64,000 bases of DNA from Escherichia coli (GCF_022846255.1 NZ_AP025682.1); one strand, 5' to 3'. Positions 18,651 through 53,661 are shown, counted from the stretch's first letter. Made by a program: numbers and translations. Notes: generated by a model not told the origin, from the letters alone.

Positions 18651-18669
18651 TAGACAGGAGACAGTCACA

Positions 18670-19840: not shown

Positions 19841-20821
19841 ATGAACGCAATAATATCGCCCGATTATTACTATGTTCTTACCGTTGCTGGTCAGTCTAAT
19901 GCCATGGCGTATGGCGAAGGACTACCATTACCGGACAAGGAAGATGCGCCTCATCCCAGAATTAAACAATTAGCGAGATTTGCGCATACACATCCCGGAG
20001 GCCCGTCATGTCACTTTAACGACATTATTCCACTGACTCACTGCCCACACGATGTTCAGGATATGCAGGGTTATCACCATCCTCTGGCAACGAATCATCA
20101 AACACAGTACGGCACCGTTGGCCAGGCACTGCATATAGCACGGAAATTACTGCCCTTTATTCCTGATAATGCAGGGGTTCTCATCGTTCCGTGTTGCCGT
20201 GGCGGATCGGCTTTTACCGCGGGCAGCGAAGGGACATATTCAGAACGGCACGGAGCCAGCCATGATGCTTGTCGTTGGGGAACGGATACTCCGCTGTACC
20301 AAGATTTAGTCAGCAGAACGCGAGTCGCACTGGCAAAAAATCCGCAGAACAAATTCCTCGGCGTATGCTGGATGCAAGGCGAATTTGACTTAATGACCAG
20401 TGACTACGCGTCACACCCTCAACACTTTAATCATATGGTTGACGCCTTTCGTAGGGATCTAAAACAATACCATTCTCAGCTTAATAAAATTACTGACGCG
20501 CCGTGGTTTTGCGGCGATACCACCTGGTACTGGAAAGAAAATTTCCCTCATGCGTATGAAGCTATTTATGGCAATTATCAAAATAATGTTTTAGCCAATA
20601 TTATTTTCGTCGACTTCCAGCAACAAGGTGCAAGAGGACTGACGAACGCGCCTGATGAAGATCCAGACGATTTAAGCACGGGATATTACGGTTCAGCGTA
20701 CCGGTCACCGGAGAACTGGACGACGGCACTGCGAAGCAGTCATTTCAGCGCGGCAGCCCGTCGGGGGATTATTTCTGACAGGTTTGTAGAAGCAATTTTG
20801 CAGTTTTGGCGCGAAAGGTGA
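19841..20821 (+). CDS. nanS: 9-O-acetyl-N-acetylneuraminate esterase NanS (326 aa from MNAIISPDYYY)
   Basis: SGNH-type esterase motif (VAGQSNAMAYG); matches recalled NanS/YjhS; third gene of nanCMS. Confidence 0.9.
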   Translation: MNAIISPDYYYVLTVAGQSNAMAYGEGLPLPDKEDAPHPRIKQLARFAHTHPGGPSCHFNDIIPLTHCPHDVQDMQGYHHPLATNHQTQYGTVGQALHIARKLLPFIPDNAGVLIVPCCRGGSAFTAGSEGTYSERHGASHDACRWGTDTPLYQDLVSRTRVALAKNPQNKFLGVCWMQGEFDLMTSDYASHPQHFNHMVDAFRRDLKQYHSQLNKITDAPWFCGDTTWYWKENFPHAYEAIYGNYQNNVLANIIFVDFQQQGARGLTNAPDEDPDDLSTGYYGSAYRSPENWTTALRSSHFSAAARRGIISDRFVEAILQFWRER

Positions 20822-20875
20822 GCGTTCATTAATTTGATTTATTCGCATCCATCAACGCTTTTAACTGCTCCGGCG
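20695..20875. repeat. Left copy of a diverged direct repeat (nanS 3' end plus downstream flank) bounding the defence island
   Basis: High similarity to 53494-53661 (shared tail ...ttcattaatttgatttatt[c/t]gcatccatcaacgcttttaactgctccggcg); the right copy lacks ~16 bp. Confidence 0.7.
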
Positions 20876-21660
20876 TGCGGCACTATAATGGTTTTCACAA
20901 CAAGGAGCCATTTTCTTATACCACTTTCAGAGACCATCCGCTTATGCCACCGCCCTCTACGCAACTGTTTGCAGAGCACCTTCCCACCGAGTGGATACAG
21001 CACCTCCTGACGCTTTCTGCTCATGCGACCATTTGTCGTCTTAACCTGAGCGCGGATGGCGAAGCGGGGATTAGCCTGCTGGCCCGCAGCGCTGTCACCC
21101 AGGAGCGCCAGCGCGTGGGGGCCCCCTGGTGGAATGGCTCTTCCGCCAGACCGCACAGACATGGGGCGCGGAACGTTACCTGAAGGATGACTGGCACGGC
21201 CTGCAACTTTTTGCCATTGATGGCGCACAGTTCAGGACACCTATGAACCTGAGTTGCGCGAATATTATGGCTCTGCCAACACATCCACTGAGCGGCAGAG
21301 CGCCTACCCGGTCATGCGTCTGGTGGCGTTAATGAATCTGGGAATCACATTCTGCTGAATGCCATGACCTCGGCCTACCGGCGGAGCGATACAGCGTGAG
21401 GCAACTAAAGCGGCGTCAGAAATCAGCTTTAAGTTCGCATTCCAGTTTATCGTGACAGAAATGATAGTGCAGGGAAATACGGCGTCACCAGGAACCATCC
21501 CGAAACGGCTGGAGCATCTGCGGGGTGCTCTGGAAGCGGTGTTCCCACGACTATCAAGGCCGAGGGCTGTTAAGGTATCAAAAACCCGTTATCCGGTGAA
21601 ACACAGTGCCGCCCCGCTTAAGTGACGGCATTGTGTTTCTGACTGGCCTTAACTTTCCCT
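20876..21660 (+). mobile_element. Degenerate IS4-family transposase remnant (frameshifted and internally deleted)
   Basis: Broken frames encode ...PPPSTQLFAEHLPTEWIQHLLTLSAHATI..., ...WLFRQTAQTWGAERYLKDDWHGLQLFAIDGAQFRTP... and ...PGTIPKRLEHLRGALEAVF..., resembling an IS4-type DDE transposase; no intact ORF. Confidence 0.45.
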
Positions 21661-21794
21661 GAATCTCTGACGATCCTCACCATTGATATTTTCTTCATTC
21701 CTCACCAGAGAAATAAAAAATCACTATACTCATCAAAATATGAGATTACATTTATTCAGGCGATCACCTTACTATTTTATACGGAAAATAAATC

Positions 21795-22445
21795 ATGAAT
21801 ATCCGTCAATCATTACATGACCGAATCTATGCAGAATACCCTCAACAGGCTAAAGATATATTACTGTATTTCCCCACTTATGAAATTATGCCATCGACCA
21901 TAAAAATGGTTATGATTAATGAGGTGGTAGCTATAACACCGCAAGAAGATTTTTATACACCAGAGTCTGGTTATTTTACGACTGTCGCCCGACAGTTAGC
22001 GCTGGCTGGATTATCGGCAAGTAGTGGCGAAGTCTTACTCAACCATGGTATCTACCTGACCTCCGCACTGAAACTACCTAAAACACAGATCACAGCCACA
22101 CCCGCGGAGATCATTCTCTGGTCACCTATTGTAGAATGGGAGCTCGAACTCTTTGCCAATATAAAAGTTATTTTCGTTGGCGGCGATATCGCGCGAAAAT
22201 GCCTTAACATCATCGCGAAAAAGCAAACACGTAAACATGCCATCCCTTCAACTCCGACGTACAAACTGATGAATAGCGAATTAGTCTGGAAAGGAATAAG
22301 CATACTTCCTGGATATATTCTTACCGGAAAAAACCTGCTCATTGAAAAGTCAAAAATCGAAATGAATGTCGAACAATTAAGAAAAGGAATTGCGATTTAT
22401 CGCAATAGTAACAGTAACCATACGAATAATTCAGTTCATGAATAA
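21795..22445 (+). CDS. Hypothetical protein (216 aa), AT-rich orphan gene
   Basis: Intact ORF with AT-rich composition unlike its neighbours; no motif I can assign confidently. Confidence 0.45.
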   Translation: MNIRQSLHDRIYAEYPQQAKDILLYFPTYEIMPSTIKMVMINEVVAITPQEDFYTPESGYFTTVARQLALAGLSASSGEVLLNHGIYLTSALKLPKTQITATPAEIILWSPIVEWELELFANIKVIFVGGDIARKCLNIIAKKQTRKHAIPSTPTYKLMNSELVWKGISILPGYILTGKNLLIEKSKIEMNVEQLRKGIAIYRNSNSNHTNNSVHE

Positions 22446-22916
22446 GAGATGAATCATTAATAACAAGAAATCACTGACAAACCACCTGTAAAAGGTCAAT
22501 CATTTTAGTTCAATTTCCTTTGTCATGATTATATTTTTATCGTCCTGACGATACTATTAACAATTACAATATTTATACCCTCCCCTGAACAAACAGAAAA
22601 GAACTCATACATTCGTTTATAATTCTGGTAATCCTGGCATCATACGTTTAAAATTTAAGGTGTTTGTTTTATAATCATGATTCCAAAGACTATTGGTCAC
22701 CAGAAAATGCCAGCCTTTTCGTGCCAGCTATATTTGTCCAGTGTGTTACCCCATCCAAAAATCATCCACATCCTGATGTTACGTTAGATATAGAGAAAAC
22801 AGGTTGTACTGTGCAATATGCTAACCGCATAAGCGAATATAATTTCTAAGCTGATATTGTCTGGCTGTTGGGAGCTAAACAATATAAATATCGCCAGTTG
22901 CCAGAACGGTTATATA

Positions 22917-22942
22917 GACCAGGAGCGTTTCGGCTCCTGGTC
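22917..22942. terminator. Hairpin in the convergent intergenic region between the orphan ORF and the UvrD-like gene
   Basis: gaccaggagc-gtttcg-gctcctggtc 10-bp perfect stem; could terminate either convergent transcript. Confidence 0.35.
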
Positions 22943-22958
22943 TGTTTCGGACATATTA

Positions 22959-25073
22959 TCAATCAGCCACTAATAGCGGACTAGGGATACCAGATGATGA
23001 AACAAACAGCCCTTTTACGGCACGGGTTGCAGCCACATGCAGTAACGCGCGCTCATTAAATAATGCATCACGCTGTTCAACGGGATCATCGGATGCTAAT
23101 GCTTTTATTTCCGGCACAACGCCTTCGTTAATCCCCACCAGGAACACATACTGGAACTCAAGCCCTTTAATACGGTGCATCGTTGCAACTCGCACGCCTG
23201 GGCGTTCATCGCTGTCACCGCTATCATTGCCTAAATTAAATGTCTCAATTCCGGCGTCATTGAGTGCTGATGCGTAGCGGTCGCAAGCATGTTTAGTACG
23301 CGCAGTAATGCAGATATCCTGAGAACGAACCTGACTCGCCAGCAATGCCTGAATTTGCTTGACGAGTGTTGCAGCCTCTTCTTTGAAATCTGCCGCATGC
23401 GTAATCATGGGCTTTTCCCCGTGCAGTAATGACAAATAATCATTACTGGTATCCGCTTCGCCATCGAGGTTATCAACCTTCACACCAGTTAACAGCCCAA
23501 CAGCAAATTGACGCGTCTCTTCTGTGGTCCGATAGTTAATCTTCAATTTTTTACTGCGACGACCACGGACGTTAATACCACACTGACCAAGAACGACCTT
23601 ATTGCGATAAATACGCTGATGCCCATCCCCGACAATAAACAGATCGTTGGGCGACTCGGGAACCAGGCTGCGAATAAGAGTAAATGCCGGGGCACCGATA
23701 TCTTGAGCTTCATCGACGACAATACTGCTATAAGGTAGTTGGACCTGCTTTTCTTTAAACAGAACAATAGCCTCATGCATGGCATCGCCCATTTCGCGCA
23801 GTTTGGCACGCGCCATTTGTGCTCTGAATTCTTCGAAAACTGGCCAGATTTTCGCCCGTTGAATACGGGATAACGCTGTACCACGTCCAACCCGGCTGAC
23901 TTTGAGGTATTCCTCCCGGGTGTAAACCGCATTTGGCTGGACAACGCGTTGCCACTCTTCAGCATAGAAATTGTCAGGTAGCCCCAGTTCGGCAGGTGCC
24001 TGCTGCAAGGCATAGTTCCAGCATTTACGTCGCCCTTCATCGCTGTCGTATACCACGCGGAAATCATAACCGTGGCGTTTTAGTTGGTCGCTCATCCAGG
24101 CATCAATGTTAACGACGTCAATACGCGCCATCTCTTCTCGCGTACACAACCGCTGGAGATTAGCGCGAATATCTGCCGCCAGGTTACGCGTAAAGGTCGT
24201 GAAAAGTACCTTCTTACCGGGTTTATCTGCCAGACGCTGAGATAACCACCGCGCACGGTGCATTGCAACAACCGTTTTCCCTGTACCTGCACCGCCCAGT
24301 ACTCGTACCGGACCATTAGCGGGCGACTCCACCAGTTTTCGCTGGCTCGGATGCAGAAATACACGCCATTTTTCTAAAGGCGCATTAAGCATCTGCAACA
24401 GCTCCTGTTCATTTTCAACGACATGGAAGCGACGTTTACTTCGTTCAATCGCCTCCATAAAGTCGTTGGTATCAACAGGCTCGTCACGATGATCGTTAAA
24501 CTCTTCCAGCACTTCCTGGTAATCCAGCCCTTCTGCCAGCCAATGCAGGGGTTCCCAGGCTTCTGCTGGCATTATGCTTTCAAGTTGATTAAGCCCGGCT
24601 TCATCGGTAAGCGCCATCACCTGATCAATAAAGACAGGCGGCACACCCAGGGCCAGAATCTGTTCCGCGCTGTAAGCTGCGAAGAGTTTCGGTTTATCTA
24701 GCACCGTTTCCGCCGCCGGTTTGATATAGCTAATATCAATAACCTGAATTGCGCCGGTAACCGGGTGAATTGAACAATCATGCCGCCGCGCCCAGTCGTA
24801 TGCTTCGTCGTGTTTATCCACCCACATCAGCATATACAGGGCACCCTGTTCAGGTTTCAGAACAATGCCGCGATAAGTTTGATCGATTCGCACCGAATGG
24901 ACATTTTTACTGCGCGCATCGTGGATCTTTTCATAGTTAAGTCCATTACTGGTCGGGTCCTGACGGAATTTGGAGATGAATTCCTGCACCTTTTTTTGCT
25001 GTGCTTTTGGGATCCGCGCGAATGCGCCCAGAAAACCATCAGAAAGTGCCACCTTGGGCGTTTGCACCGTCAT
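22959..25073 (-). CDS. UvrD/Rep-like superfamily 1 helicase with a ~200-aa N-terminal domain of unknown function (704 aa)
   Basis: Walker A GGAGTGKT, motif II VVDEAQD, C-terminal UvrD-like motif (MHRIKGLEFQYVFLVG); start overlaps the upstream gene's stop (ATGA). Confidence 0.8.
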   Translation of the reverse strand: MTVQTPKVALSDGFLGAFARIPKAQQKKVQEFISKFRQDPTSNGLNYEKIHDARSKNVHSVRIDQTYRGIVLKPEQGALYMLMWVDKHDEAYDWARRHDCSIHPVTGAIQVIDISYIKPAAETVLDKPKLFAAYSAEQILALGVPPVFIDQVMALTDEAGLNQLESIMPAEAWEPLHWLAEGLDYQEVLEEFNDHRDEPVDTNDFMEAIERSKRRFHVVENEQELLQMLNAPLEKWRVFLHPSQRKLVESPANGPVRVLGGAGTGKTVVAMHRARWLSQRLADKPGKKVLFTTFTRNLAADIRANLQRLCTREEMARIDVVNIDAWMSDQLKRHGYDFRVVYDSDEGRRKCWNYALQQAPAELGLPDNFYAEEWQRVVQPNAVYTREEYLKVSRVGRGTALSRIQRAKIWPVFEEFRAQMARAKLREMGDAMHEAIVLFKEKQVQLPYSSIVVDEAQDIGAPAFTLIRSLVPESPNDLFIVGDGHQRIYRNKVVLGQCGINVRGRRSKKLKINYRTTEETRQFAVGLLTGVKVDNLDGEADTSNDYLSLLHGEKPMITHAADFKEEAATLVKQIQALLASQVRSQDICITARTKHACDRYASALNDAGIETFNLGNDSGDSDERPGVRVATMHRIKGLEFQYVFLVGINEGVVPEIKALASDDPVEQRDALFNERALLHVAATRAVKGLFVSSSGIPSPLLVAD

Positions 25074-28000
25074 TTGTCACCTCCGGACAGATGTTGCAAT
25101 GTATTTTCGTCAATTGGCCCGAATGCTACGTGCCAACCCCTGGTTGTGAATAATGGAATAAATTCTTGATTATCAATAATCAATGCCCATTTTTGTGATG
25201 GCCAGGCGAGATCGGCTTCCGCAATAATTTCCCCCTCATCATTTTGCAATTCGTAGCCGAGAGTCGGCGCAGAGAGAGAATGAGACTGAAGCAACGCGAT
25301 CTCTTCAGCGCTTAATAAGCCAAACTCAATAATCTCAGCCCAACTCTCATCAGTCTCTGGTACTGCCTCTGGCGTTGCCGAAACTTTAGTGTCAACGCTT
25401 TCCTGCGGTAAATGCACGGCTTTACGGCTGGTAAAGGTTATATCCGGCAGGAACTGTAACAGGTTTACCAGTCGCCAGAAGCCATTGAGTCCCGCTTCAT
25501 AACCGTCATCCTGCGTATAGCGATCGTCAAAACAGATATGCAAACGCAGCCAGCTGCGCATTTGTGCGACACTGGTCGTCGGTTTAATGGCTTGTTGTGG
25601 CAACACCGAAGCCAGCTCAATAAATTGCTGCGATGAGTTACAGCTATCGAGTAAACCACCAAAGACAAACGGTTCGTCTGGCAAAAGCTCTGCTAGCCGC
25701 CAGGCTGGCGCGTTTTCCTGCATTTCATAGGCATACTTTTGTTTCGTTCCCGCGTCCTGTGACTTCTTCACATCCAACCACACCCAGGCATGTGCAGCAG
25801 CCATTTTCTGCCATAACTGCGTTCTTCCTCCCGGATCGGCGAGATAATCCAGCAGCAGTGCAAAACTGTTGCGTTCCCGGAACGACGCTTCAAGGGCCGC
25901 AAAGTTGGTATCGTGAAACAGGTTATAAAACTTAGGCTGTTTCATATCCGGGTTATGCCCAAGCCCCAGGACATCCTGAACATGTTTAAGCCCAGGCTCT
26001 TTGAGATCGGCCCACGTGACTGTCCACACCCAGAAATTATCGCTATCCCGAATCGCCTGGCGTTTTTGCACATCCTCTGCGACGCTATTTTTGTGAAACG
26101 CAAAGCCATCAAGGAAAATAGCTACCGGTTTAATGGCATCAGACTGCATAAGCGGATATAGCACGTAATCCGGGCGACAAGGGATCCCCACCGCCTCTTT
26201 AGCGCCTAAATCCACCTGAGCTTTAAGATGCCAGCTCATCATCGGTTCGCTGCGGGTGTTAATAATCCACCCAGCGCCCTGATGCGCGTAACTGCGACTG
26301 ACAATCAGGTTTTTATTTTCTTGCAGGCAGCTAATAAACCGTTTTTCCAGCTCACTGCCCATCATGGCTTCGAGGGAAATGTTTTTGATGGAATCAATTA
26401 CCCGTATCGAATCTCTTGCCTGCAAAATTTTCGCCAGCAAGAGACGCGCCTGATCGCGGGAGACATACTTCATGCGCCCACGGTCACGGTAAGCGTAAAC
26501 GCAACGATAACAACCATCTTTATGCGTATCATGGTTGCAACTGCATTCCACTATCGCCTGATAGGCCAGTTCAAGTAATTTCAGCAAATTGTCGGGAGTG
26601 CGCATCAGCTCTTTAAGAGAACCAGTTCCCCCCGGGACGGTATCGTAAATCACCAGATACTGCCGCCAGGATTCGCCTTCATTTTCCGGCTCGCGGTACA
26701 CAACGCCTTTCAGGTGATCGACATTCCCCTTGAAGTAATGTTTAAGACCTAGCTGGATCGCCGCCCCAAGAGAAGCCTCCACGACACGGTCATTACTGTA
26801 ACTGCTTACCGGGAGCAGAATACGCAACGCTTCTGACTCCAGCTGGCGATAGAGATAGAGATAATCTTCGAACTTCGCCTTTTCGGGTTCCGTGCGATAT
26901 TTGCAGCTCAAATCATGACGGGGTTCATGATCGCGAGGACGCTGTACCATGCCGCACCCGAGGCAAACTTTAAACCCGGTTCGCTTCTTCGCTTCTCCGG
27001 CAATCATCAACTCATTGGCATCATCCGCCATTTTGCCGAAGTTGATATCCCGCAGGGTGACTTTGCTTAAAAATTCAAAACCAAACGGAACTTCGCCTTC
27101 CTCAATCGCGTATGCCGCCGATACATCTTCTTTTTCGAAACTAACCAATAGCTGACGCTGGAAGAAAGCAGGTTCACGGCTGTCGCTCTCGTCGCTGATC
27201 TGGCTATCACGTGCGCTGGCGCGGGCATACACCTGGCGAAGTTTCAGCAGCGTGGTTTTTTGTCCGGCGTCGGCCCACCCCGGTGTGCCACATTTCGGGC
27301 AATATTTATGCTGGTCGCCCGTCTGGTCGATATTTTCGCTGTAGTTACAGTGGCTACAGATACGCCAGTTCTCCGGCTCAGAGACCTTCAGGTCTATCTG
27401 CTCAATTTCAACTTTATGCCCACCGGCATAGAAATTATTCAGCGGAGCCAGCTCAGCCAGCGCCGTTGATGCCGGGCGTTCATATTCGAAAGTGGTGTTT
27501 TGATATTCACGTGCTTCCCCGCCTTCTTTACGCCGCCAGAGCACAGAACGTAACGTAATACCGGCTTCCGGGAAGGCGTAGTTAGGCAGCAGACCTTCAT
27601 CCGTGAGGAAATTCAGCGTCTGCTTATTGTTGATTTGATTGACCAGCGCCATCAGCGCCTGCCGTTCTGAAGTTAACTCGCGCATATCGCTGTCAAAGTT
27701 TTGATCGCGCGGCGCGTTCTCCAGCTTATCGATACTGCGCTTGAGTTTATCGATGCGTGAACGCAGAGATTTGCGATCTTCCACCAGCAGTTTTAACGCC
27801 TCTTCGATACGCTGCACCAGAGAGCGTTGTCCTGGCGCGCCCTGAAGATAAGACAACAACTGTTGGCGAGTTTCTGCGGCAAGATCGGGGAAGATCGCCG
27901 TAAATTGTGCAGCAATCTCCGCATGATGCTGTTCGATATATCTCAGTAAGTTATACGGAAAACCCGATTTACGCCCGAACTCCAGCTCATCCAGCATCTG

Positions 28001-36345: not shown

Positions 36346-36347
36346 GA

Positions 36348-39364: not shown

Positions 39365-39421
39365 ACAAAAATTATTAAAAAGTGAGCTGGGTCAACTCCC
39401 CTGGAAGATATCCCCAGGGGA
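39365..39421 (-). terminator. Rho-independent terminator downstream of druE
   Basis: tcccctgg-aagatat-ccagggga stem-loop (39397-39421) followed on the minus strand by a T-rich tract (plus-strand A-run 39366-39380). Confidence 0.5.
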
Positions 39422-39429
39422 GCAATTAT

Positions 39430-45753: not shown

Positions 45754-48700
45754 ACTCCTGCTTGTTCAAAATAATATTGATAGATTACCCCTAATTGCTG
45801 CGGGGCTTGCTGATAGTGGAATTCAAAAAGCGCAGACAGTTGATGTATCAAGTTATTATCTTTTTGGGTTAACAGCGCTGCGACTAACATCAAATTAAAA
45901 CGTTTTTCAAGCCGTGAGTGATATTTATCTTCAATCCAAAGCTTATTAAAAACAGATTTTAACTCTGGAGTAATAGCACTAGACCAAAGTTCTTTAGGGA
46001 AGATACTGATACGCCCAAAGCTGTCGGGGTTCCTTAATAGCATCTGTTTAGCTTCATTAAACTGCTCACGACTAACAGTTGGCAAGACATTACAACCGGC
46101 TGGTAGGAGTTCGCCATATGTAAGTAACATATTCGCAATGGGAGCCAGACGACGATCGATATGTGCACGATGGTTCATAAAAGCAATAAAGGGTTGCAAT
46201 ATATGTAATGCTAATGTTTTATCGTTAATCTGTTTTTCCAGATAAGCCCAACACTTTTGAAAAACATCTTTCCAGATTGAAACGGGAATCCATCCCCATG
46301 AAAAGGGTAATTCTTCCTGTATATCATAAATCGTATCGCTATCACCAGAAAGACATGATGATATTAACAACTGAACAACTACGCGGTAATTACTCGAAAT
46401 ACCTCTGAACAAATCCAGATCCAGCAAGGATAAGCCATTATTCATTTTGTATTTCTTAATATACTCCGTTAATAAACAGCAATAATTTTGCAAAGGATTG
46501 TTATCTATTTCAAAAATTAGCTCATTAAAATATTTTTTTCGCTGTTCGGAATCCGCTTCGCATAGAGCATTAAGTAATAAATCATTTGTCTGTAATACAG
46601 GTAGCCCCCATTTAATTACTGGTGCAATGCGAGCTGTACCATCAAGTTTCCCCACAATTAACCATGGGCTATCCTGAACATTCAGAGCTGAAAGATCATA
46701 AGCAAATTCATCTTTTTTTAGCAACGATATGTGTAAGCCAGGATCCTTAAGAGAAATAGCATCAACAACCAGCTCGTCTATTCTATTTGCAGGAAAAACA
46801 ACAGAATTTTTTATATCAACCAGTAACCCTTGATCGTGTTCAATAAAACTACCATCGTAGCGTTTAATACTGAGTGTTGCTTTATCCTTTCCAAATCTGT
46901 CAGAGTAAAAATCAACACATAATGTACTATTGCTGTTCCATGCACATGCCAGCATAGCATTTAGCAAATTATAGTTCTCATAAAGTGAAATTTGTTTTAA
47001 TTTGTCATTGCATCCTGATAAAAGAGGAAGGTCGGCATGTAAATAACGGAATTTTTCAGCTACTGGATTTTCATCCAACAACTCGATATTAAGATATCCT
47101 CTTCCAGCACAAGATATGGTTAACAACTCAGCATCTATTCCATGCAAATGCGCTATAGATGCCACACCATCAAAATGAACAGAACCATCATGAGTTACAA
47201 ATCGGCCACCGCTAACCGGCTTAGGTAATAATAGTTTAAGATTAGAACCATCTTTCCAGGAGACCCGTAAATCAACGGTATTTTCCAGCATCTCCGATGA
47301 ATTATAATAAATAGCACACTCGTTTTGTGAATAATCGGACTTAAGTGTTACTTTTTCATTATTTGAATATTTGTCAATTCTAGTATCCGTTATACCAGAA
47401 AGCATTATGATGCCTTGCTGAGCACTCTCAGGTATAATATTAATATCGAAGTCTGTTGGTAAAACTACAACTTTACCGCTAAATAAAACCTCATCATTAA
47501 CTATTCGTCTGACTTCTATCTGTCCTTTTGGCATTTCTGATGCGACAGAATACCAGGCATTGTTACCTGAACGAATGGAACGCCAAAAAAGTTCTTTCTC
47601 CGGTACAATGCCATATTGCAGATCCTTTTTCCAACCGATCTTCGGCCAGGCTCGATGGACAGGATAATCCGATTTAACCAGTTCAACTTCTGTCGATTTA
47701 ATATAATATTCAATCGCAGAATCATAAAGTTGCTGGGTGCGAATTGTACAAACTGCACCATCATGTAAAACAACGCTAAATACTCCACTTATTTTAGTTA
47801 AGCTGCGTTCACTGTTTTTCAGCAACCTTGGGATATCAAACTCACCTTCTCCACTAATATCTAAATGGCTATTTTTCGGTAGCGAAATAAACAGAGCATT
47901 TAGCCTGGAACTCACAGACCCCATACCGACAAGTTTTAGCTGCGATTCACTCTCATTCATCGCTTCAAAAACCCAGGGGAGTTCTTCAGTAAGTTCATAA
48001 CCGCCTTTTGGAATTGTGTGGCCTAACAGAATTGGACCTTCATGAAGCGACAACGAGATTTCGGCCATTGCATCTGCACCAGAGAGCTTTTGCATCGCAA
48101 TAGGTAATAACTCGACCCGCCAATCTTGCTGCTCATAACGGCTTAGCATTGCCAACCTTGCCCCGCCATTTCTCCATTTTCCTGAAATGATGAGTCGGGT
48201 CTGCTCCGGCTGAATATTGCATTCAAACAAAGAGGTTAACTGTTCTGTACGCATTATGGCCGGGAATCGGAACCGGGCATCACAATACCAACTGTCATCA
48301 ACATCGACCCAGATTCTTTCAACCTGAAGACTACTTGCACTGCGTATTTCAGAAGATTGAGAAAGTAATCGCCTTACAATCTCTGCAGCATTCGCTTCGG
48401 GGAGAACGAGTGGAAGTTGAAGATGCCAGTCTGGAGAGAGCTTACGTAATGCAGAAACGGGATCACTGCTTTGAGGTGGATGCTCACTAAGTAATCGGCA
48501 GAGAGTCTCGCAGAATTCACCGGCTATTTCATAGACCAGTTCGTTTTGCATTGTGACAGGAATCGTATCGCCTAATTCTTGTGCAATTTTAGCGGCAGGA
48601 TATTGAGATGCTTGCCCACGAAGCGCCTGATATATCCTTCTGAAATAGGTAATCAAATAACCGCTCTCATTTTCAATCATGCGGATAGGTAAACCACCTT

Positions 48701-49103
48701 CACAAGCCAGTGTATGCAGATAACCCGAAGCTTGCCCCAGGTTTCTTATCTTTCTTTTCCAGTAGCGAATGCCATCATTAACCAGCTTCTGTTGATGAAC
48801 ATACGGAACTTTCCAGTCAATAGAATCTAAAATTGTGTCCCATTTAGGGTGTCCGACCGTATGAGTCCGGCGGATAAACTCTGCGGCATATATGCTAAAT
48901 AGAACATCGCTATAGGAAATGAATATCGTTCTTGGATAACTACGGGGGGCATATGTACGCAGTAGTTCTGCCAAACTTTCGTACTCTGTATCAGTACAAC
49001 GGTAAGCATATAACGCCCGTCCATCAGCTCCGGATAATGAACGGCGACTAAAAAACATGTTAAGCCATTGCAAAAGTGGGTTAACTGGAGTTTTCACAAG
49101 CAA
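45744..49103 (-). CDS. druH: Large protein without recognisable motifs, consistent with Druantia type III DruH (1119 aa)
   Basis: Assigned only by size, absence of known motifs and tight coupling upstream of the DruE-like gene. Confidence 0.5.
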   Translation of the reverse strand: MLVKTPVNPLLQWLNMFFSRRSLSGADGRALYAYRCTDTEYESLAELLRTYAPRSYPRTIFISYSDVLFSIYAAEFIRRTHTVGHPKWDTILDSIDWKVPYVHQQKLVNDGIRYWKRKIRNLGQASGYLHTLACEGGLPIRMIENESGYLITYFRRIYQALRGQASQYPAAKIAQELGDTIPVTMQNELVYEIAGEFCETLCRLLSEHPPQSSDPVSALRKLSPDWHLQLPLVLPEANAAEIVRRLLSQSSEIRSASSLQVERIWVDVDDSWYCDARFRFPAIMRTEQLTSLFECNIQPEQTRLIISGKWRNGGARLAMLSRYEQQDWRVELLPIAMQKLSGADAMAEISLSLHEGPILLGHTIPKGGYELTEELPWVFEAMNESESQLKLVGMGSVSSRLNALFISLPKNSHLDISGEGEFDIPRLLKNSERSLTKISGVFSVVLHDGAVCTIRTQQLYDSAIEYYIKSTEVELVKSDYPVHRAWPKIGWKKDLQYGIVPEKELFWRSIRSGNNAWYSVASEMPKGQIEVRRIVNDEVLFSGKVVVLPTDFDINIIPESAQQGIIMLSGITDTRIDKYSNNEKVTLKSDYSQNECAIYYNSSEMLENTVDLRVSWKDGSNLKLLLPKPVSGGRFVTHDGSVHFDGVASIAHLHGIDAELLTISCAGRGYLNIELLDENPVAEKFRYLHADLPLLSGCNDKLKQISLYENYNLLNAMLACAWNSNSTLCVDFYSDRFGKDKATLSIKRYDGSFIEHDQGLLVDIKNSVVFPANRIDELVVDAISLKDPGLHISLLKKDEFAYDLSALNVQDSPWLIVGKLDGTARIAPVIKWGLPVLQTNDLLLNALCEADSEQRKKYFNELIFEIDNNPLQNYCCLLTEYIKKYKMNNGLSLLDLDLFRGISSNYRVVVQLLISSCLSGDSDTIYDIQEELPFSWGWIPVSIWKDVFQKCWAYLEKQINDKTLALHILQPFIAFMNHRAHIDRRLAPIANMLLTYGELLPAGCNVLPTVSREQFNEAKQMLLRNPDSFGRISIFPKELWSSAITPELKSVFNKLWIEDKYHSRLEKRFNLMLVAALLTQKDNNLIHQLSALFEFHYQQAPQQLGVIYQYYFEQAGVCH

Positions 49104-49314
49104 CCTGCCTTCCTTTGATACAATTCGTAACAGGTTACTATCATCATAAAAAAGCTCAACCCGATGAACTCGCTAAAAATGAGACAAATCATTTATATCT
49201 CGAAAAAACTTGTTACAATCATGAGCGCTACACCGAACTTAACCATATAAATTATGTGTGTTTTGTTTATTTTTTAAACAATTACAACTATCCATTATTT
49301 ACACAGGTATCAAA

Positions 49315-50967
49315 ATGTTAGCGCAGCTTTTTGAGCAGTTGTTTCAATCGATAGACTCTACACTGATCACCAATATTTTCATCTGGGCTGTTATATTCGT
49401 ATTTTTATCAGCGTGGTGGTGTGACAAAAAAAATATACATAGTAAGTTTAGAGAATATGCTCCAACCTTAATGGGGGCATTAGGTATTCTGGGTACTTTC
49501 ATTGGTATTATTATTGGGTTACTCAATTTTAATACTGAAAGTATTGATACCAGCATCCCCGTATTATTAGGCGGCCTAAAAACAGCATTCATTACAAGCA
49601 TTGTAGGTATGTTTTTTGCCATTTTATTTAATGGAATGGATGCTTTCTTTTTTGCCAATAAACGAAGTGCGTTAGCAGAAAATAACCCTGAATCTGTTAC
49701 ACCTGAACATATCTATCATGAATTAAAAGAGCAGAACCAGACTCTGACTAAATTAGTCTCGGGTATTAACGGTGATAGTGAAGGTTCTCTTATTGCTCAA
49801 ATAAAATTACTACGTACTGAGATTAGCGATTCCTCGCAGGCACAATTAGCTAATCACACTCATTTCAGTAATAAGCTTTGGGAACAACTTGAACAATTTG
49901 CAGATCTAATGGCAAAAGGTGCTACAGAACAAATTATTGATGCTTTACGACAAGTCATTATTGATTTTAATGAAAATTTAACTGAACAGTTTGGTGAAAA
50001 CTTTAAAGCACTTGATGCCTCTGTAAAAAAACTTGTTGAGTGGCAGGAAAATTATAAAACGCAAGTTGAGCTGATGTCAGAACAATATCAACAAAGTGTC
50101 GAGTCTCTGGTTGAAACAAAAACTGCGGTTGCCGGGATTTGGGAAGAATGTAAAGAAATTCCTCTGGCTATGTCTGAACTGCGTGAAGTGCTTCAGGTGA
50201 ACCAACATCAAATCAGCGAACTCTCCCGCCATTTAGAAACCTTTGTCGCCATCCGCGATAAAGCTACAACCGTATTACCTGAAATACAGAACAAAATGGC
50301 TGAAGTGGGTGAACTGCTGAAATCCGGAGCTGCAAATGTTAGTGCATCTCTTGAGCAAACCAGCCAGCAAATACTTCTTAATGCAGATTCAATGCGCGTG
50401 GCCCTGGATGAAGGTACCGAAGGATTCAGACAATCGGTTACCCAAACACAACAAGCATTTGCCTCGATGGCACATGATGTCAGCAATTCCTCCGAAACTC
50501 TAACCAGCACGTTAGGTGAAACAATTACTGAAATGAAACAAAGTGGTGAAGAATTCCTGAAGTCACTAGAGTCGCACTCGAAAGAATTGCATAGAAATAT
50601 GGAACAAAATACGACTAATGTAATTGATATGTTCAGTAAGACTGGTGAAAAGATTAACCATCAACTATCCAGTAATGCCGATAATATGTTTGATTCAATC
50701 CAGACATCATTTGATAAGGCAAGTGCAGGGCTGACTTCTCAAGTCAGAGAATCAATTGAAAAATTTGCTCTATCCATCAACGAGCAGTTACATGCTTTTG
50801 AGCAAGCAACTGAACGTGAGATGAACCGTGAAATGCAATCATTAGGTAATGCTCTGCTTTCAATCAGCAAAGGTTTTGTCGGTAACTATGAAAAACTTAT
50901 TAAAGATTACCAAATAATTATGGGGCAGTTACAAGCATTAATTTCTGCTAATAAACATCGAGGGTAA
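49315..50967 (+). CDS. zorA: Zorya ZorA (MotA/ExbB-like proton-channel subunit with long coiled-coil tail), ~550 aa from MLAQLFEQ
   Basis: N-terminal transmembrane helices (IFIWAVIFVFLSAWW, LMGALGILGTFIGIIIGL, AFITSIVGMFFAILF) followed by ~400 aa of heptad-like, low-complexity helical sequence; zorB and zorE follow. Confidence 0.75.
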   Translation: MLAQLFEQLFQSIDSTLITNIFIWAVIFVFLSAWWCDKKNIHSKFREYAPTLMGALGILGTFIGIIIGLLNFNTESIDTSIPVLLGGLKTAFITSIVGMFFAILFNGMDAFFFANKRSALAENNPESVTPEHIYHELKEQNQTLTKLVSGINGDSEGSLIAQIKLLRTEISDSSQAQLANHTHFSNKLWEQLEQFADLMAKGATEQIIDALRQVIIDFNENLTEQFGENFKALDASVKKLVEWQENYKTQVELMSEQYQQSVESLVETKTAVAGIWEECKEIPLAMSELREVLQVNQHQISELSRHLETFVAIRDKATTVLPEIQNKMAEVGELLKSGAANVSASLEQTSQQILLNADSMRVALDEGTEGFRQSVTQTQQAFASMAHDVSNSSETLTSTLGETITEMKQSGEEFLKSLESHSKELHRNMEQNTTNVIDMFSKTGEKINHQLSSNADNMFDSIQTSFDKASAGLTSQVRESIEKFALSINEQLHAFEQATEREMNREMQSLGNALLSISKGFVGNYEKLIKDYQIIMGQLQALISANKHRG

Positions 50968-50973
50968 TCGATC

Positions 50974-51681
50974 ATGGATAAGATTATAGGGAAACAATTA
51001 CCTAAAAAAGATCAAGATAATGAACACTGGGTATCCATGTCAGACCTAATGGCAGGGCTGATGATGGTTTTTATGTTCATATCTATTGCTTATATGCACT
51101 ACGTACGTATTGAAAAAGAAAAAATTAAAGAAGTTGCCGTAGCCTACGAGAATGCTCAGTTACAGCTTTATAATGCTCTGGATATTGAGTTTGCAAAGGA
51201 TTTGCAAGACTGGGATGCAGAGATCGATAAGCAGACTCTGGAGGTTCGATTTAAATCACCGGATGTTTTATTTGGCTTAGGAAGCATAGAGCTTAAACCA
51301 AAGTTTAAACTCATTCTTGACGACTTCTTTCCTCGCTACCTAAAAGTTCTTGATAATTATCAAGAACATATTACTGAAGTCCGCATTGAAGGTCACACAA
51401 GTACTGACTGGACTGGAACAACGAATCCTGATATTGCTTATTTTAATAATATGGCACTATCACAAGGTCGTACACGTGCAGTATTACAATACGTTTATGA
51501 TATAAAAAATATCGCGACACACCAACAATGGGTTAAAAGTAAATTTGCCGCAGTAGGTTATTCATCTGCACATCCCATTCTTGATAAAACCGGCAAGGAG
51601 GATCCTAATCGCTCTCGTCGTGTCACCTTCAAAGTTGTAACAAATGCCGAGTTGCAGATTAGAAAGATTATTCAGGAGTAA
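50974..51681 (+). CDS. zorB: Zorya ZorB (MotB-like with OmpA-type peptidoglycan-binding domain), 235 aa
   Basis: Single N-terminal TM helix (LMAGLMMVFMFISIAYM) and OmpA/MotB-like C-terminal domain (RIEGHTSTDW..., ...LSQGRTRAV..., RRVTF). Confidence 0.8.
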   Translation: MDKIIGKQLPKKDQDNEHWVSMSDLMAGLMMVFMFISIAYMHYVRIEKEKIKEVAVAYENAQLQLYNALDIEFAKDLQDWDAEIDKQTLEVRFKSPDVLFGLGSIELKPKFKLILDDFFPRYLKVLDNYQEHITEVRIEGHTSTDWTGTTNPDIAYFNNMALSQGRTRAVLQYVYDIKNIATHQQWVKSKFAAVGYSSAHPILDKTGKEDPNRSRRVTFKVVTNAELQIRKIIQE

Positions 51682-51684
51682 GAG

Positions 51685-52788
51685 ATGAAATTATCTATCG
51701 ACATTTCAGAACTTATTCAATTAGGGAAGAAAATGTTACCAGAAGGAGTCGATTTTTTTCTGGATGAATCCCCTATTGACTTTGATCCTATAGATATTGA
51801 GTTATCCACGGGTAAAGAAGTTAGTATCGAAGATCTTGACCCTGGTAGCGGGCTTATCTCTTATCATGGCCGCCAGGTTCTTTTATATATTAGGGACCAT
51901 TCAGGGCGTTATGATGCGGCTATCATCGATGGCGAAAAAGGAAAACGTTTTCATATTGCCTGGTGCAGAACTCTTGATGAAATGCGCCATAAAAATCGAT
52001 TTGAAAGGTATCATGCAACTAACCGCATAGATGGTTTATTCGAAATTGATGATGGTTCAGGTCGGAGCCAGGATGTTGATTTACGGGTATGTATGAATTG
52101 TCTGGAACGACTTAATTACAAAGGAAGTATTGATAAACAAAGGAAAAGAGAGATTTTTAAATCATTCTCATTAAATGAGTTTTTTTCAGATTATAGTACC
52201 TGTTTTCGTCATATGCCTAAGGGTATCTATGACAAAACAAATAGTGGGTATGTCGAAAACTGGAAAGATATATCAAAATCAATACGAGAAAAGGCCAAGT
52301 ATACTTGTAATGATTGTGGTGTGAATTTATCAACCGCCAAAAACTTGTGCCATGTCCATCATAAAAATGGCATCAAATATGATAATCACCATGAAAACCT
52401 TCTTGTTCTGTGTAAGGATTGCCATCGTAAACAGCCCCTCCATGAAGGTATATTCGTTACCCAAGCTGAGATGGCTATCATTCAACGTTTACGTTCCCAA
52501 CAAGGGTTATTAAAAGCCGAATCCTGGAATGAAATATATGACCTGACTGATCCATCAGTACATGGTGATATTAATATGATGCAACATAAAGGCTTTCAAC
52601 CTCCTGTTCCTGGGTTAGATCTTCAAAACTCAGAACATGAAATTATTGCAACCGTAGAAGCAGCATGGCCAGGCCTTAAAATTGCAGTTAACCTTACTCC
52701 CGCCGAAGTCGAAGGATGGAGAATATATACCGTGGGTGAGCTGGTTAAAGAAATACAAACAGGAGCCTTTACGTCAGCAACGTTGTAA
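51685..52788 (+). CDS. zorE: Zorya type II ZorE (HNH endonuclease), 367 aa
   Basis: HNH signature CNDCG...HVHHKNG...NLLVLCKDCH; third gene directly after zorA/zorB. Confidence 0.75.
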   Translation: MKLSIDISELIQLGKKMLPEGVDFFLDESPIDFDPIDIELSTGKEVSIEDLDPGSGLISYHGRQVLLYIRDHSGRYDAAIIDGEKGKRFHIAWCRTLDEMRHKNRFERYHATNRIDGLFEIDDGSGRSQDVDLRVCMNCLERLNYKGSIDKQRKREIFKSFSLNEFFSDYSTCFRHMPKGIYDKTNSGYVENWKDISKSIREKAKYTCNDCGVNLSTAKNLCHVHHKNGIKYDNHHENLLVLCKDCHRKQPLHEGIFVTQAEMAIIQRLRSQQGLLKAESWNEIYDLTDPSVHGDINMMQHKGFQPPVPGLDLQNSEHEIIATVEAAWPGLKIAVNLTPAEVEGWRIYTVGELVKEIQTGAFTSATL

Positions 52789-52799
52789 ATTCCGAAACT

Positions 52800-52835
52800 C
52801 CGTGAAAGTTAAGGCTTTCACGGAAGATAAATATA
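52800..52835 (+). terminator. Terminator-like hairpin after zorE
   Basis: ccgtgaaag-ttaagg-ctttcacgg 9-bp stem 12 nt after the zorE stop, followed by an AT-rich tract. Confidence 0.45.
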
Positions 52836-52998
52836 ATTTTCCTGATTTGTGACTCAAATTACAAAAGTCGTTTATGGCATAACTTGTCTGTTTTTTTTGG
52901 TGTAATAGGTATAAAGGCATATGCTATGGTTAGCCTTATATTTAAAACTTTCCTCATACGGGTGAAGGTTAAAGATTGGTAGATAGGTTACAGTCACA

Positions 52999-53607
52999 AT
53001 GAATAAAGCAATAACGGTGCTTGCTATAATGATGGCTTCATTTTCCGTAAATGCGTATGTATTACCGGAAACGCCTGTGCCATTTAAAAGTGGTACCGGA
53101 GCAATTGATAACAACACTGTCTACATTGGTTTAGGTAGCGCAGGTACGGCATGGTACAAGCTGGAGAAACAGACCAAAGATAAAAAATGGACAGCGTTAG
53201 CTGCATTTCCTGGTGGACCGAGAGATCAAGCAACTTCTGCATTTATTGATGGCAATCTGTATGTGTTTGACGGCATTGGCAAAAACAGTGAGGGCTTGAC
53301 TCAGGTATTTAATGACGTTCACAAATACAACCTCAAAACCAATAGCTGGGTTAAATTGATGTCGCACGCGCCGATGGGCATGGCGGGTCATGTGACATTT
53401 GTACACAACGGCAAGGCTTATGTTACTGGCGGTGTTAACCAGAATATCTTCAATGGCTATTTTGAAGATCTTAACGAAGCTGGAAAAGATTCAACATACC
53501 GAACGCCGGAGAACTGGACGACGACACCACGAAGCAGTCATTTCAGTCGGGGGATGATTGTAGACAAATTTGTTGACGCTATTTTGCGGTTTTGGCGTGA
53601 AGGGTGA
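52999..53607 (+). pseudogene. Chimeric nanM'-'nanS remnant (first ~165 codons of a nanM homologue fused to the last ~37 codons of a nanS homologue)
   Basis: 52999-53493 aligns at roughly nine in ten bases (by eye) with nanM 18670-19166; 53494-53607 aligns with the nanS 3' end 20695-20821 minus a short deletion; a GGTATA-type motif lies ~95 bp upstream. Confidence 0.75.
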
Positions 53608-53661
53608 GCATTCATTAATTTGATTTATTTGCATCCATCAACGCTTTTAACTGCTCCGGCG
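53494..53661. repeat. Right copy of the diverged direct repeat bounding the island
   Basis: Matches 20695-20875 (see left copy); similarity ends at ...ctgctccggcg in both copies. Confidence 0.7.

What the first reader, a model, noticed from the sequence alone, without database searches (positions are those of the whole stretch)
20695..53661. ~33 kb defence island bounded by diverged direct repeats of nanM/nanS sequence, with an IS4 remnant at the left edge
An intact nanC-nanM-nanS is followed, 32 kb later, by a decayed chimeric copy (nanM 5' part fused to the nanS 3' end, 52999-53607) and the same downstream flank ending ...ctgctccggcg (20875 and 53661). The copies appear to differ at roughly one position in ten by eye, so this is not a recent duplication; it looks like the scar of homologous-recombination acquisition or replacement of an island whose donor carried its own nan flank. 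The left copy also contains the last ~15 codons of the HNH gene that now sits at 53615-54193, suggesting nanS and that HNH gene were once convergent neighbours. In K-12 I recall only a helicase-like pseudogene (yjhR) beside nanS.
Basis: partly seen in the sequence, partly recalled or inferred. Interest (0 to 1): 0.6.

Follow-up and report, generated by a model that had tools for sequence, protein, structure and literature searches.

The report
Known defence island with duplicated nan flank
The 33-kb segment is the already characterised E. coli "O-island 172" anti-phage island (ARMADA II, Druantia III, Zorya II), and the repeated nanM/nanS pieces around it are an old recombination scar left when a chromosome carrying the island next to its own nan genes was joined to one carrying the fimbrial genes.

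Summary
Window 18650-19166 matches 52979-53495 (94.2%, no gaps), and 20692-20875 matches 53490-53661 (81.5%). The left copy ends 16 codons into the HNH gene.

The repeats enclose an IS4-family remnant, an unknown 216-aa ORF and nine genes: armDCBA, druEH and zorABE. This is the published OI-172 defence island of O157:H7. It is present in 511 of 5,426 complete E. coli genomes.

- **Empty sites exist.** Some genomes have nanS and HNH as convergent neighbours with nothing between them.
- **A second arrangement exists.** In ten E. coli genomes the island lies between uxuA and an intact nanM-nanS-HNH, with gntP-fim-nanC absent. Escherichia sp. E1V33 also has an intact nanM directly after zorE; its left side was not recovered.
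- **The window is a hybrid.** The fim-type left part meets the island-type right part at one non-homologous joint (20876|20877). The same joint is found in 444 genomes.
- **The spare right nan copy decayed.** Different lineages lost different parts of it.
- **No repeat-mediated excision products were found.**
- **K-12 yjhR is unrelated to the island's UvrD-like gene.**

The island content is already known and the scar is ordinary. Interest is low to moderate.

The parts
7325..18649 (.). gntP (internally deleted here), fimH-fimB and nanC. This cassette and the island are alternative occupants of the same uxuA|nanM interval.
   Evidence: This stretch is absent from S43 and GF4-3. Their homology with the window stops at 7324 and resumes at 18650. 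Annotation comes from matching genomes. The gntP deletion is shown.
18670..19776 (+). Intact nanM (left, functional copy).
   Evidence: NCBIfam N-acetylneuraminate epimerase, 603.7 bits. Differs at 9-14 of 517 sites from other E. coli nanM genes.
19841..20821 (+). Intact nanS (sialate O-acetylesterase).
   Evidence: Collinear with the annotated nanS of UTAK-12. The ORF is open.
18650..19166 (+). Left repeat A (nanM 5' part).
   Evidence: 94.2% ungapped match to 52979-53495.
20692..20876 (+). Left repeat B: nanS 3' end plus the last 16 codons of HNH (HNH remnant 20829-20876, minus strand).
   Evidence: 81.5% match to 53490-53661. 98.3% to the empty-site sequence of UTAK-12. Homology to the empty site ends at 20876.
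20877..21633 (+). IS4-family remnant. The first ~41 nt with the left inverted repeat are missing, about 530 bp are deleted internally, and the right end is kept. The non-homologous joint is at 20876|20877.
   Evidence: Aligned to a full IS4-family element. NCBIfam transpos_IS4_1, E=7e-6. The joint is identical to the base in O157-type genomes and is present in 444 genomes.
21795..22445 (+). orf216, unknown function. It is the leftmost gene of the island unit.
   Evidence: No PADLOC or NCBIfam hit. Only a weak UDG-superfamily hit, E=0.004. A decayed homologue (56-67% aa identity) lies next to uxuA in S43 and GF4-3.
22959..25073 (-). armD: UvrD/GajB-like helicase of ARMADA type II.
   Evidence: PADLOC GajB, 2.9e-36. 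Pfam UvrD-helicase and UvrD_C over residues 241-693. Named in the literature.
25070..31411 (-). armC: YprA-like DEAD/DEAH helicase, 2113 aa, with DUF1998/MZB.
   Evidence: PADLOC DruE/DrmA partial hits. Pfam DEAD, Helicase_C and MZB are recorded for 2113-aa products at this position in related genomes.
31411..36345 (-). armB: PglX/DrmMI-like adenine methyltransferase, with a variable block at about 32010-33040.
   Evidence: PADLOC type IIG, 3e-284, and DrmMI, 4e-57. The block is diverged against other genomes and plasmids.
36348..39206 (-). armA: SNF2/DrmD/BrxHII-like helicase.
   Evidence: PADLOC DrmD, 1.4e-99. NCBIfam DISARM_DrmD, 4e-104, below the curated cut-off.
39430..45753 (-). druE (Druantia type III).
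   Evidence: PADLOC DruE3, 2179 bits, end to end.
45744..49103 (-). druH (Druantia type III; STY4851/ECs_5259 = YjiT family).
   Evidence: PADLOC DruH3, 2538 bits. NCBIfam YjiT_fam, 970 bits.
49258..52788 (+). zorA (49258-50967), zorB (50974-51681) and zorE (51685-52788): Zorya type II.
   Evidence: PADLOC ZorA2 3e-302, ZorB2 4e-104, ZorE2 1.9e-176.
52789..52978 (.). 190-bp spacer between zorE and the right nan copy. It is part of the island-type haplotype.
   Evidence: Contiguous with the island in S43, GF4-3 and E1V33. Boundary sequences are shown.
52979..53495 (+). Right repeat A: nanM' pseudogene fragment.
   Evidence: Of its 18 private coding changes, 9 are at codon positions 1 or 2 and nearly all are GC to AT.
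53490..53661 (+). Right repeat B: 'nanS 3' end plus the HNH 3' end, of a different allele class.
   Evidence: A 12-bp deletion and 10 substitutions are shared with Escherichia sp. E1V33 and not with E. coli-type nanS.
52999..53607 (+). Open chimeric ORF (NanM residues 1-165 fused to the nanS tail). Presumed non-functional.
   Evidence: Annotated as a partial kelch-repeat protein or nanM pseudogene in related genomes.
53615..54265 (-). HNH endonuclease gene of the backbone, frameshifted here by an 11-bp deletion.
   Evidence: Alignment with strain 19SZHZ713Rt. It is a convergent neighbour of nanS in empty-site genomes.
54334..55263 (+). Phosphorothioated-DNA-binding restriction endonuclease (backbone gene to the right of the island).
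   Evidence: NCBIfam PT-DNA_restrict, 437.9 bits. Present next to HNH in island-free genomes.

Best explanation
**What it is.** The segment is the OI-172-type anti-phage island: orf216, armDCBA (ARMADA type II), druEH (Druantia type III) and zorABE (Zorya type II).

**Two alternative fillings of one interval.** In Escherichia, the interval between uxuA and nanM holds either gntP-fim-nanC ('K-type', as in K-12) or this island ('S-type', as in strain S43). The breakpoints are the same in both.

**How the window arose.** The window carries both fillings in tandem. A K-type stretch runs from uxuA through nanC-nanM-nanS and stops 16 codons into the HNH gene. At a single non-homologous joint (20876|20877) it meets a truncated IS4 element at the left end of an S-type stretch. 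That S-type stretch brought its own nanM-nanS-HNH flank. This produced a 2.2-kb direct duplication around the island.

**What happened afterwards.** The event happened once and long ago. The arrangement then spread among E. coli lineages, presumably by homologous recombination in the flanks. The redundant right nan copy decayed independently in different lineages. In this window a microhomology deletion fused nanM' to 'nanS, and drift followed.

**Shown:** the anatomy, the alternative haplotypes, the shared joint and the independent decay.

**Inferred:** the direction of transfer (island into a fim+ cell, or fim into an island+ cell), the molecular route of the non-homologous join, and spread by flanking recombination.
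For: - **Repeats and joint.**
- **Island identity.** PADLOC and NCBIfam hits. 97.3% nt identity over 24.9 kb to O157:H7 genomes. Published as OI-172 / ARMADA II.
- **Empty site.** nanS and HNH are convergent neighbours in UTAK-12 and APEC 102026.
- **S-type genomes.** uxuA-island-intact nanM-nanS-HNH, without gntP-fim-nanC, in S43 and GF4-3. Homology to the window breaks at 7324|7325 and 18649|18650. Ten such genomes were found. Only these two left contexts appear among places encoding the identical ArmD.
- **Single origin.** The joint ...CTCCGGCGT|GCGGCACTATAA... is identical in O157-type genomes although the surrounding 110 nt differ by 6%. It is present in 444 of 5,426 genomes.
- **Not a transposition joint.** The first 41 nt of the IS, including its left inverted repeat, are missing.
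- **The right flank came with the island.** Its nanS 3' end is 81% identical to the left copy and to E. coli-type nanS. It shares a 12-bp deletion and 10 substitutions with E1V33.
- **Independent decay from a full-length copy.** The window lost the equivalent of 19167-20691. O157 retains nanM up to the equivalent of 19267 but lost 18686-19022, nanS and HNH. E1V33 retains a complete open nanM. S43 retains all of it.
- **Pseudogene drift.** 9 of 18 private coding changes are at codon positions 1 or 2, and nearly all private changes are GC to AT.
Against: - S-type genomes sampled today are not the direct parent. Their left 600 bp hold only a diverged orf216 remnant and no IS4. Their nan flank is E. 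coli-type.
- I could not recover the left side of the island in E1V33, so the S-type arrangement outside E. coli is not shown.
- The right-copy nanM' is not E1V33-like: only 1 of 18 private changes is shared. The flank is therefore mosaic and its source lineage is unidentified.
- One tandem-type genome (19SZHZ713Rt) has a nanM' much closer to functional alleles. This implies later gene conversion, which blurs any dating.
- I did not test whether S-type strains carry fim elsewhere in the genome.
Confidence: 0.75

Rival explanations
1. Campbell-type integration. A circular molecule was cut out of an S-type chromosome by an illegitimate join between the IS4 element and the HNH 3' end. It carried the IS4 remnant, orf216, the island, nanM, nanS and the HNH remnant. 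It then integrated into a K-type chromosome by one homologous crossover inside the 2.2-kb nan homology, duplicating that homology around the island.
For: This gives exactly the observed topology. The left copy ends at the pre-formed HNH'|IS4' joint, and the right copy runs on into a full HNH and the chromosome. Replicons carrying the island plus a nanM' fragment exist as plasmids.
Against: The end product is indistinguishable from a linear import with one homologous and one illegitimate join. No such circle or excision product was seen. The plasmid copies carry the already decayed O157-type scar, so they derive from the tandem form and are not its precursor.
Confidence: 0.2
2. The island is cargo of a prophage-like element that integrated site-specifically at the leuX tRNA gene and was later immobilised. 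This is the model published for Zorya-Druantia-ARMADA islands at tRNA-Leu. On this view the nan repeats are incidental.
For: PMC12458937 describes these islands as composites of elements integrated at tRNA-Leu. The region to the right of the window's island does contain integrase fragments and CP4-like modules in related genomes.
Against: - The window has no tRNA gene, and none of the ORFs examined in 20877-52978 matched an integrase model.
- The island lies on the far side of HNH and the PT-restriction gene. Both sit between nanS and leuX in a strain with no island at all.
- In S-type genomes the island lies beyond nanM-nanS.
- The repeats are 2.2 kb of gene sequence, not 16-20 nt att repeats.
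Confidence: 0.1
3. A tandem duplication of nanM-nanS-HNH' arose in place within one chromosome. The island then inserted at the duplication joint, and the copies diverged by drift.
For: The island lies exactly at what would be the duplication joint. The nanM' part shows relaxed-selection drift.
Against: - The nanS 3' segment differs by allele class, with features shared with another species' allele.
- The same zorE-spacer-nanM junction exists in genomes with a single nan copy.
- It requires a coincidence of insertion site and duplication joint.
Confidence: 0.03
4. The tandem arrangement is ancestral. Island-free sites arose by RecA-mediated deletion between the direct repeats, which still make the island excisable.
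For: Direct repeats of 517 and 172 nt flank the island, with a longest identical run of 74 nt.
Against: - Synthetic queries for both predicted deletion products found none among 5,426 genomes. No genome has nanC-nanM'::'nanS. No genome has an empty site with the right-type nanS end: the best match is 94.3% and lacks the 12-bp deletion.
- Losses actually seen are IS1-mediated.
- O157 has almost lost the right repeat.
Confidence: 0.05

Closest known systems
[quoted passage not shown]
   Same: The same nine genes in the same order and orientation. 97.3% nt identity over 24.9 kb to O157:H7 genomes. The same HNH'/IS4' joint to the base. The same position beside nanCMS and fim.
   Different: The window keeps an intact orf216, a longer right nan remnant (517 + 172 nt) and the HNH gene. 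O157 has lost orf216, most of nanM', all of 'nanS and HNH. The paper's main text has no mention of nanM, nanS, fim or leuX.
Zorya-Druantia-ARMADA arrays described as cargo of tRNA-Phe and tRNA-Leu integrating elements (PMC12458937)
   Same: The same three systems as a conserved array. The same broad chromosomal region near tRNA-Leu, bounded by the type 1 fimbriae operon.
   Different: Here the array has no integrase, tRNA or short att repeats of its own. It is separated from leuX by backbone genes and is bracketed by duplicated nan gene sequence. It also exists as a replacement for gntP-fim-nanC.
The leuX / uxuA-ahr hotspot of E. coli (Lescat et al. 2009, as cited in the panRGP preprint 10.1101/2020.03.26.007484)
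   Same: The same interval. That literature already notes that the fim operon is missing in a few strains and that nanCMS is the usual border.
   Different: That work treats loss of fim as a sporadic deletion. Here, in ten genomes, fim, gntP and nanC are replaced by the defence island with fixed breakpoints.
Homology-facilitated illegitimate recombination, or Campbell-type integration, as general routes that leave a duplicated flank (my own knowledge of the mechanisms)
   Same: One side is collinear with homologous DNA, the other is a joint without homology (about 1 nt shared). The result is a direct duplication of the shared segment.
   Different: No experiment was done here. The route is inferred from the end product only.

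Membership tests
Zorya type II | zorA, zorB and zorE present as one co-directional unit. | tested here: met
   PADLOC ZorA2 (3e-302, residues 20-569 on profile 1-545), ZorB2 (4e-104) and ZorE2 (1.9e-176), adjacent on the + strand at 49258-52788.
Druantia type III | druH followed by druE (large DUF1998 helicase), with both profiles matched end to end. | tested here: met
   DruH3 2538 bits (3-1119 on 1-1117) and DruE3 2179 bits (9-2105 on 4-2051), adjacent on the - strand. YjiT_fam 970 bits.
ARMADA type II | Strict order: BrxHII/SNF2-like helicase, PglX-like methyltransferase, YprA-like helicase, GajB-like UvrD helicase (PMC12458937). | tested here: met
   In transcription order: 39206-36348 DrmD/BrxHII-like, 36345-31411 type IIG/DrmMI/PglX-like, 31411-25070 DruE/DrmA-like, 25073-22959 GajB-like. 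In related genomes the 2113-aa product at the ArmC position carries DEAD, Helicase_C and MZB. The paper's ARMADA II representative, WP_000937974.1, is the protein annotated at this position in an O157 genome.
ARMADA type II | [quoted passage not shown] | tested here: inconclusive
   Pfam finds UvrD domains only from residue 241 onward and nothing significant in residues 1-240. No structure prediction was done.
ARMADA type II | ArmC has a C-terminal Vsr-type nuclease domain. | not tested
   The only observation is a PADLOC ZorE2 (HNH endonuclease model) hit at residues 2021-2096, E=5.8e-9. No dedicated search was made.
OI-172 defence island (same locus as in O157:H7) | The nine-gene array at the nanS-proximal end of the fim/leuX region, with the same boundaries. 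| tested here: met
   100% coverage at 97.3% identity to many O157:H7 chromosomes. Identical left joint. The right side is more decayed in O157.
tRNA-integrating genomic island or satellite-like element | Integrase gene, tRNA attachment site and short direct att repeats at the two ends. | tested here: not met
   No tRNA in the 64-kb window. None of the ORFs examined in 20877-52978 matched an integrase model. The ends lie in the HNH 3' end/IS4 and at the nanC stop position. att repeats were not searched for exhaustively.
Composite transposon | IS copies at both ends with intact terminal repeats and a target-site duplication. | tested here: not met
   There is only one IS remnant. It is at the left end and lacks its outer 41 nt and left inverted repeat. 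Nothing IS-like lies between zorE and nanM'.

The most novel reading that the evidence does not exclude
The triple defence array and the gntP-type 1 fimbriae-nanC cassette are old alternative fillings of one chromosomal interval (uxuA|nanM) in Escherichia. The common O157:H7-type arrangement is a one-off fusion of the two. The decayed nan fragment stuck to zorE acts as a provenance mark. At least one conjugative E. coli plasmid (pQnrS1_005237) carries the O157-type scar with both of its deletion joints, so this chromosomal locus was the source of that plasmid-borne copy. By extension it may be the source of the copies now found on Klebsiella plasmids.
Probability: 0.6. Interest if true: 0.4.

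Novelty: already known. Interest (0 to 1): 0.3.

Why it matters
The island is the main phage-resistance determinant of EHEC O157:H7 and is already under experimental study.

This analysis adds its natural history.

- **It is not mobile here.** In this position the island behaves as a fixed chromosomal haplotype. It arose from one illegitimate fusion and is shared by about 8% of complete E. coli genomes.
- **It has a fim-less allelic form.** In that form the defence array replaces type 1 fimbriae, NanC and GntP.
- **Its nan scar traces export.** The scar can be used to follow copies that moved from the chromosome to plasmids.

This qualifies the published view that such arrays are simply stacked by tRNA-targeting elements. 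It also gives a practical marker for typing island lineages. It does not reveal a new kind of system.

Tried and rejected
- **Reaching the left end of the island in Escherichia sp. E1V33.** I tried hopping with exact-protein look-ups. The DruH look-up worked. The next protein, ArmA, is identical in thousands of genomes, so the trail was lost.
- **K-12 yjhR as a relic of the island's UvrD-like gene.** Rejected. tblastn of all island helicases against the K-12 region gave nothing. yjhR matches, at 89-93% aa identity, a different 1171-aa helicase (AAA_11/AAA_12/PLD) that lies to the right of the PT-restriction gene in E1V33.
- **Repeat-mediated excision.** I built the two predicted deletion products as synthetic queries and found neither among 5,426 genomes.
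- **IS4 transposition as the origin of the left joint.** Rejected, because the joint lies 41 nt inside the element.
- **Function of orf216.** No PADLOC or NCBIfam hit, and only a marginal Pfam UDG hit.
- **RelE-like N-terminus of ArmD.** Not detectable with Pfam.
- **E1V33 as the donor of the whole right flank.** Rejected for the nanM' part, where only 1 of 18 private changes is shared.
- **Short repeats at the island ends.** No obvious shared repeat is visible in the printed boundary sequences. No formal repeat search was made.

Full report
**1. Observation**

BLASTN of the left region against the right region gives two collinear matches.

| Left | Right | Identity | Content |
|---|---|---|---|
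| 18650-19166 | 52979-53495 | 94.2% over 517 nt, no gaps | nanM 5' part |
| 20692-20875 | 53490-53661 | 81.5%, 12 gap positions | nanS 3' end + HNH 3' end |

The right copy is the first 165 codons of nanM joined to the tail of nanS. About 1.5 kb is missing between them, with a few bases of overlap at the deletion joint. The result is an open 202-aa chimeric ORF.

Against an island-free genome, the left side of the window is collinear up to 20876. That point is 48 nt into the 3' end of the HNH gene.

The 'IS4 remnant' is also correct. Window 20877-21633 aligns in three blocks with a complete IS4-family element. The first ~41 nt, with the left inverted repeat, are missing. About 530 bp are deleted internally, and the right end is kept.

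**2. What lies between the repeats**

All of the following are on the minus strand and nearly abutting:

- a UvrD/GajB-like helicase (22959-25073)
- a 2113-aa DruE/DrmA-like helicase (25070-31411); in related genomes the equivalent 2113-aa product carries DUF1998/MZB
- a type IIG/DrmMI/PglX-like methyltransferase (31411-36345)
- a DrmD/BrxHII-like SNF2 helicase (36348-39206)
- DruE3 (39430-45753)
- DruH3 (45744-49103)

ZorA2, ZorB2 and ZorE2 follow, transcribed divergently (49258-52788).

Two 2025 preprints name the first four genes armDCBA, or ARMADA type II. They show experimentally that the nine-gene array is the phage-defence island on O-island 172 of EHEC O157:H7 (z5894-z5902), with synergy between the systems.

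The array is present at 80% coverage or more in 511 of 5,426 complete E. coli genomes. O157:H7 copies are 97.3% identical to the window. The content of the island is therefore already known.

An unannotated 216-aa ORF (21795-22445) lies between the IS remnant and armD. It has no informative match.

**3. The empty site**

UTAK-12 and APEC 102026 have nanC-nanM-nanS followed directly by a convergent HNH gene and then a phosphorothioated-DNA-binding restriction endonuclease. In APEC 102026 only two more genes separate these from tRNA-Leu (leuX).

K-12 has nanS, a relic of the HNH tail (ythB), a relic of the restriction gene, and then yjhR. yjhR is not related to the island's UvrD-like gene. It is the relic of a different 1171-aa helicase found to the right of the restriction gene in another Escherichia species.

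**4. The key result: a second arrangement**

A scan of species-representative genomes with ZorE found Escherichia sp. E1V33. There the island is followed by a complete, open nanM that is 90% identical to E. coli nanM, with a codon-position pattern typical of purifying selection.

Searching E. coli with that junction found strains S43, GF4-3, MB06022 and TW14425. In these, zorE is followed by an intact nanM. The annotated regions of S43 and GF4-3 show the full picture: uxuR-uxuB-uxuA, about 0.6 kb, armD through zorE, nanM, nanS, HNH, and onward toward leuX. gntP, the whole fim operon and nanC are absent.

Homology between these genomes and the window breaks at exactly 7324|7325 and 18649|18650. 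The island and gntP-fim-nanC are therefore alternative fillings of one interval. Ten complete genomes have this 'S-type' junction. Look-ups of the identical ArmD protein across a much larger collection show only these two left contexts.

The literature already regards uxuA-ahr as the leuX hotspot and notes occasional absence of fim.

**5. How the window arrangement arose**

From position 1 to 20876 the window is collinear with the K-type arrangement. From 22713 to its end it is collinear with the S-type arrangement. The 190-bp spacer between zorE and nanM belongs to the S-type stretch.

The only novel joint is 20876|20877. It links HNH codon -16 to nt ~41 of an IS4 element, with about one shared base. 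It is therefore neither a homologous crossover nor a transposition joint.

The same joint, to the base, occurs in O157-type genomes, although the surrounding 110 nt differ by 6%. It is present in 444 genomes. That indicates one old event.

The right flank was not copied from the left one. Its nanS 3' end is 81% identical to E. coli-type nanS. It shares a 12-bp deletion and ten substitutions with E1V33.

The right copy was originally full length and then decayed separately in different lineages:

| Genome | State of the nan copy to the right of zorE |
|---|---|
| This window | lost the equivalent of 19167-20691 |
| O157:H7 | keeps nanM up to the equivalent of 19267; lost 18686-19022, nanS and HNH |
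| E1V33 | lost only part of nanS (and part of HNH) |
| S43 | lost nothing |

The nanM' changes private to the window type are almost all GC to AT. Half of the coding ones fall on codon positions 1 and 2, as expected for a pseudogene. One genome shows a nanM' closer to functional alleles, which suggests later gene conversion.

Two routes give this topology, and I cannot separate them:

- a linear import with one homologous crossover and one illegitimate end-join
- integration of a circle, carrying the island plus its nan flank, by a single crossover in the nan homology

**6. Do the repeats do anything now?**

I built the two deletion products expected from recombination between the repeats and searched for them. 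No genome has nanC-nanM'::'nanS. No empty site carries the right-type nanS end.

The losses I did see are IS1-mediated. The repeats look like an inert scar.

**7. Relation to the published model**

The YprA/ARMADA preprint interprets these arrays at tRNA-Leu as cargo of sequentially integrating, later immobilised elements.

Within 20877-52978 none of the ORFs I examined matched an integrase model, and the window has no tRNA gene. The island lies beyond backbone genes that separate nanS from leuX in an island-free strain. In S-type genomes it lies beyond nanM-nanS as well.

That model may describe how the array first reached Escherichia, or other copies of it. It does not explain the present boundaries.

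**8. Export to plasmids**

The array also occurs on at least 13 plasmids, including conjugative IncFIB plasmids of E. coli and IncFIB plasmids of Klebsiella pneumoniae.

Plasmid pQnrS1_005237 matches an O157 chromosome at 99.3% over 1,342 ungapped nt. That stretch spans zorE, the spacer, both O157-type nanM' fragments and both deletion joints. This plasmid copy therefore came from the chromosomal nan locus.

**9. Verdict**

The island is already known and the scar is an ordinary product of recombination.

The modestly new points are the allelic relation between the defence array and the fimbrial cassette, the single-origin fusion shared by O157:H7 and many other lineages, and the use of the nan scar as a provenance mark.

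Noticed in passing
window 55374-63909 (- strand): A PDC-S11 candidate defence gene (332 aa) is followed by JetD3, JetC3 (1478 aa), a 298-aa ORF in the JetB position with no PADLOC hit, and JetA3. This is a Wadjet type III system immediately to the right of the PT-DNA restriction gene.
   Followed up: partly
window 53615-54265 (- strand): The backbone HNH gene carries an 11-bp deletion relative to strain 19SZHZ713Rt. That shifts the frame after about 36 codons, so it is a pseudogene here.
   Followed up: yes
window 7325-7600: gntP is internally deleted in this strain. About 1.1 kb is missing relative to ECCNB12-2.
   Followed up: partly
window about 32010-33040 (inside armB): This block of the methyltransferase is only 74-76% identical, or unalignable, against other carriers and plasmids, while the rest of the island is 96-98% identical. 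It is probably the specificity domain. This is consistent with the published remark that island diversity sits in armB.
   Followed up: partly
plasmid loci L035 (K. pneumoniae, NZ_CP031815.1) and L036 (E. coli pQnrS1_005237, NZ_CP026578.2): The ARMADA-Druantia array (with Zorya in L036) is carried on IncFIB plasmids, with the same left limit at window 22909. L036 retains the O157-type nanM' scar at 99.3% identity, which shows chromosome-to-plasmid movement.
   Followed up: yes
locus L004 (K-12) 11755-12995 and locus L016 1-3320: K-12 yjhR is the relic of a 1171-aa AAA_11/AAA_12/PLDc_2 helicase. That helicase lies to the right of the PT-restriction gene in Escherichia sp. E1V33 (89-93% aa identity).
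   Followed up: yes
locus L016 (Pfam names for DruH and DruE): Pfam names the N-terminal domains of DruH and DruE YjiT_N and YjiV_N. This suggests that the K-12 pseudogenes yjiT and yjiV, in the immigration control region, are relics of a second Druantia III copy. That link rests on my own knowledge of K-12 gene names.
   Followed up: no
loci L034 (EC23HZZ201) and L037 (SCPM-O-B-12142): IS1-mediated deletions remove large parts of the region. One removes everything from just past uxuA to the leuX integrase remnant. The other removes fimD through zorA, including nanCMS, ARMADA and Druantia.
   Followed up: partly
window 21795-22445 and L015 9870-10473: orf216 is intact in the window, absent in O157, and reduced to a diverged relic (56-67% aa identity) next to uxuA in S-type genomes. 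Its only hit is a marginal match to the uracil-DNA glycosylase superfamily, E=0.004.
   Followed up: partly
window 44-2425 (+ strand): A 793-aa DhaM/PTS enzyme I-like fusion protein lies to the left of uxuR, where other strains have yjiC-iraD. This is another variable spot at the window's left edge.
   Followed up: no
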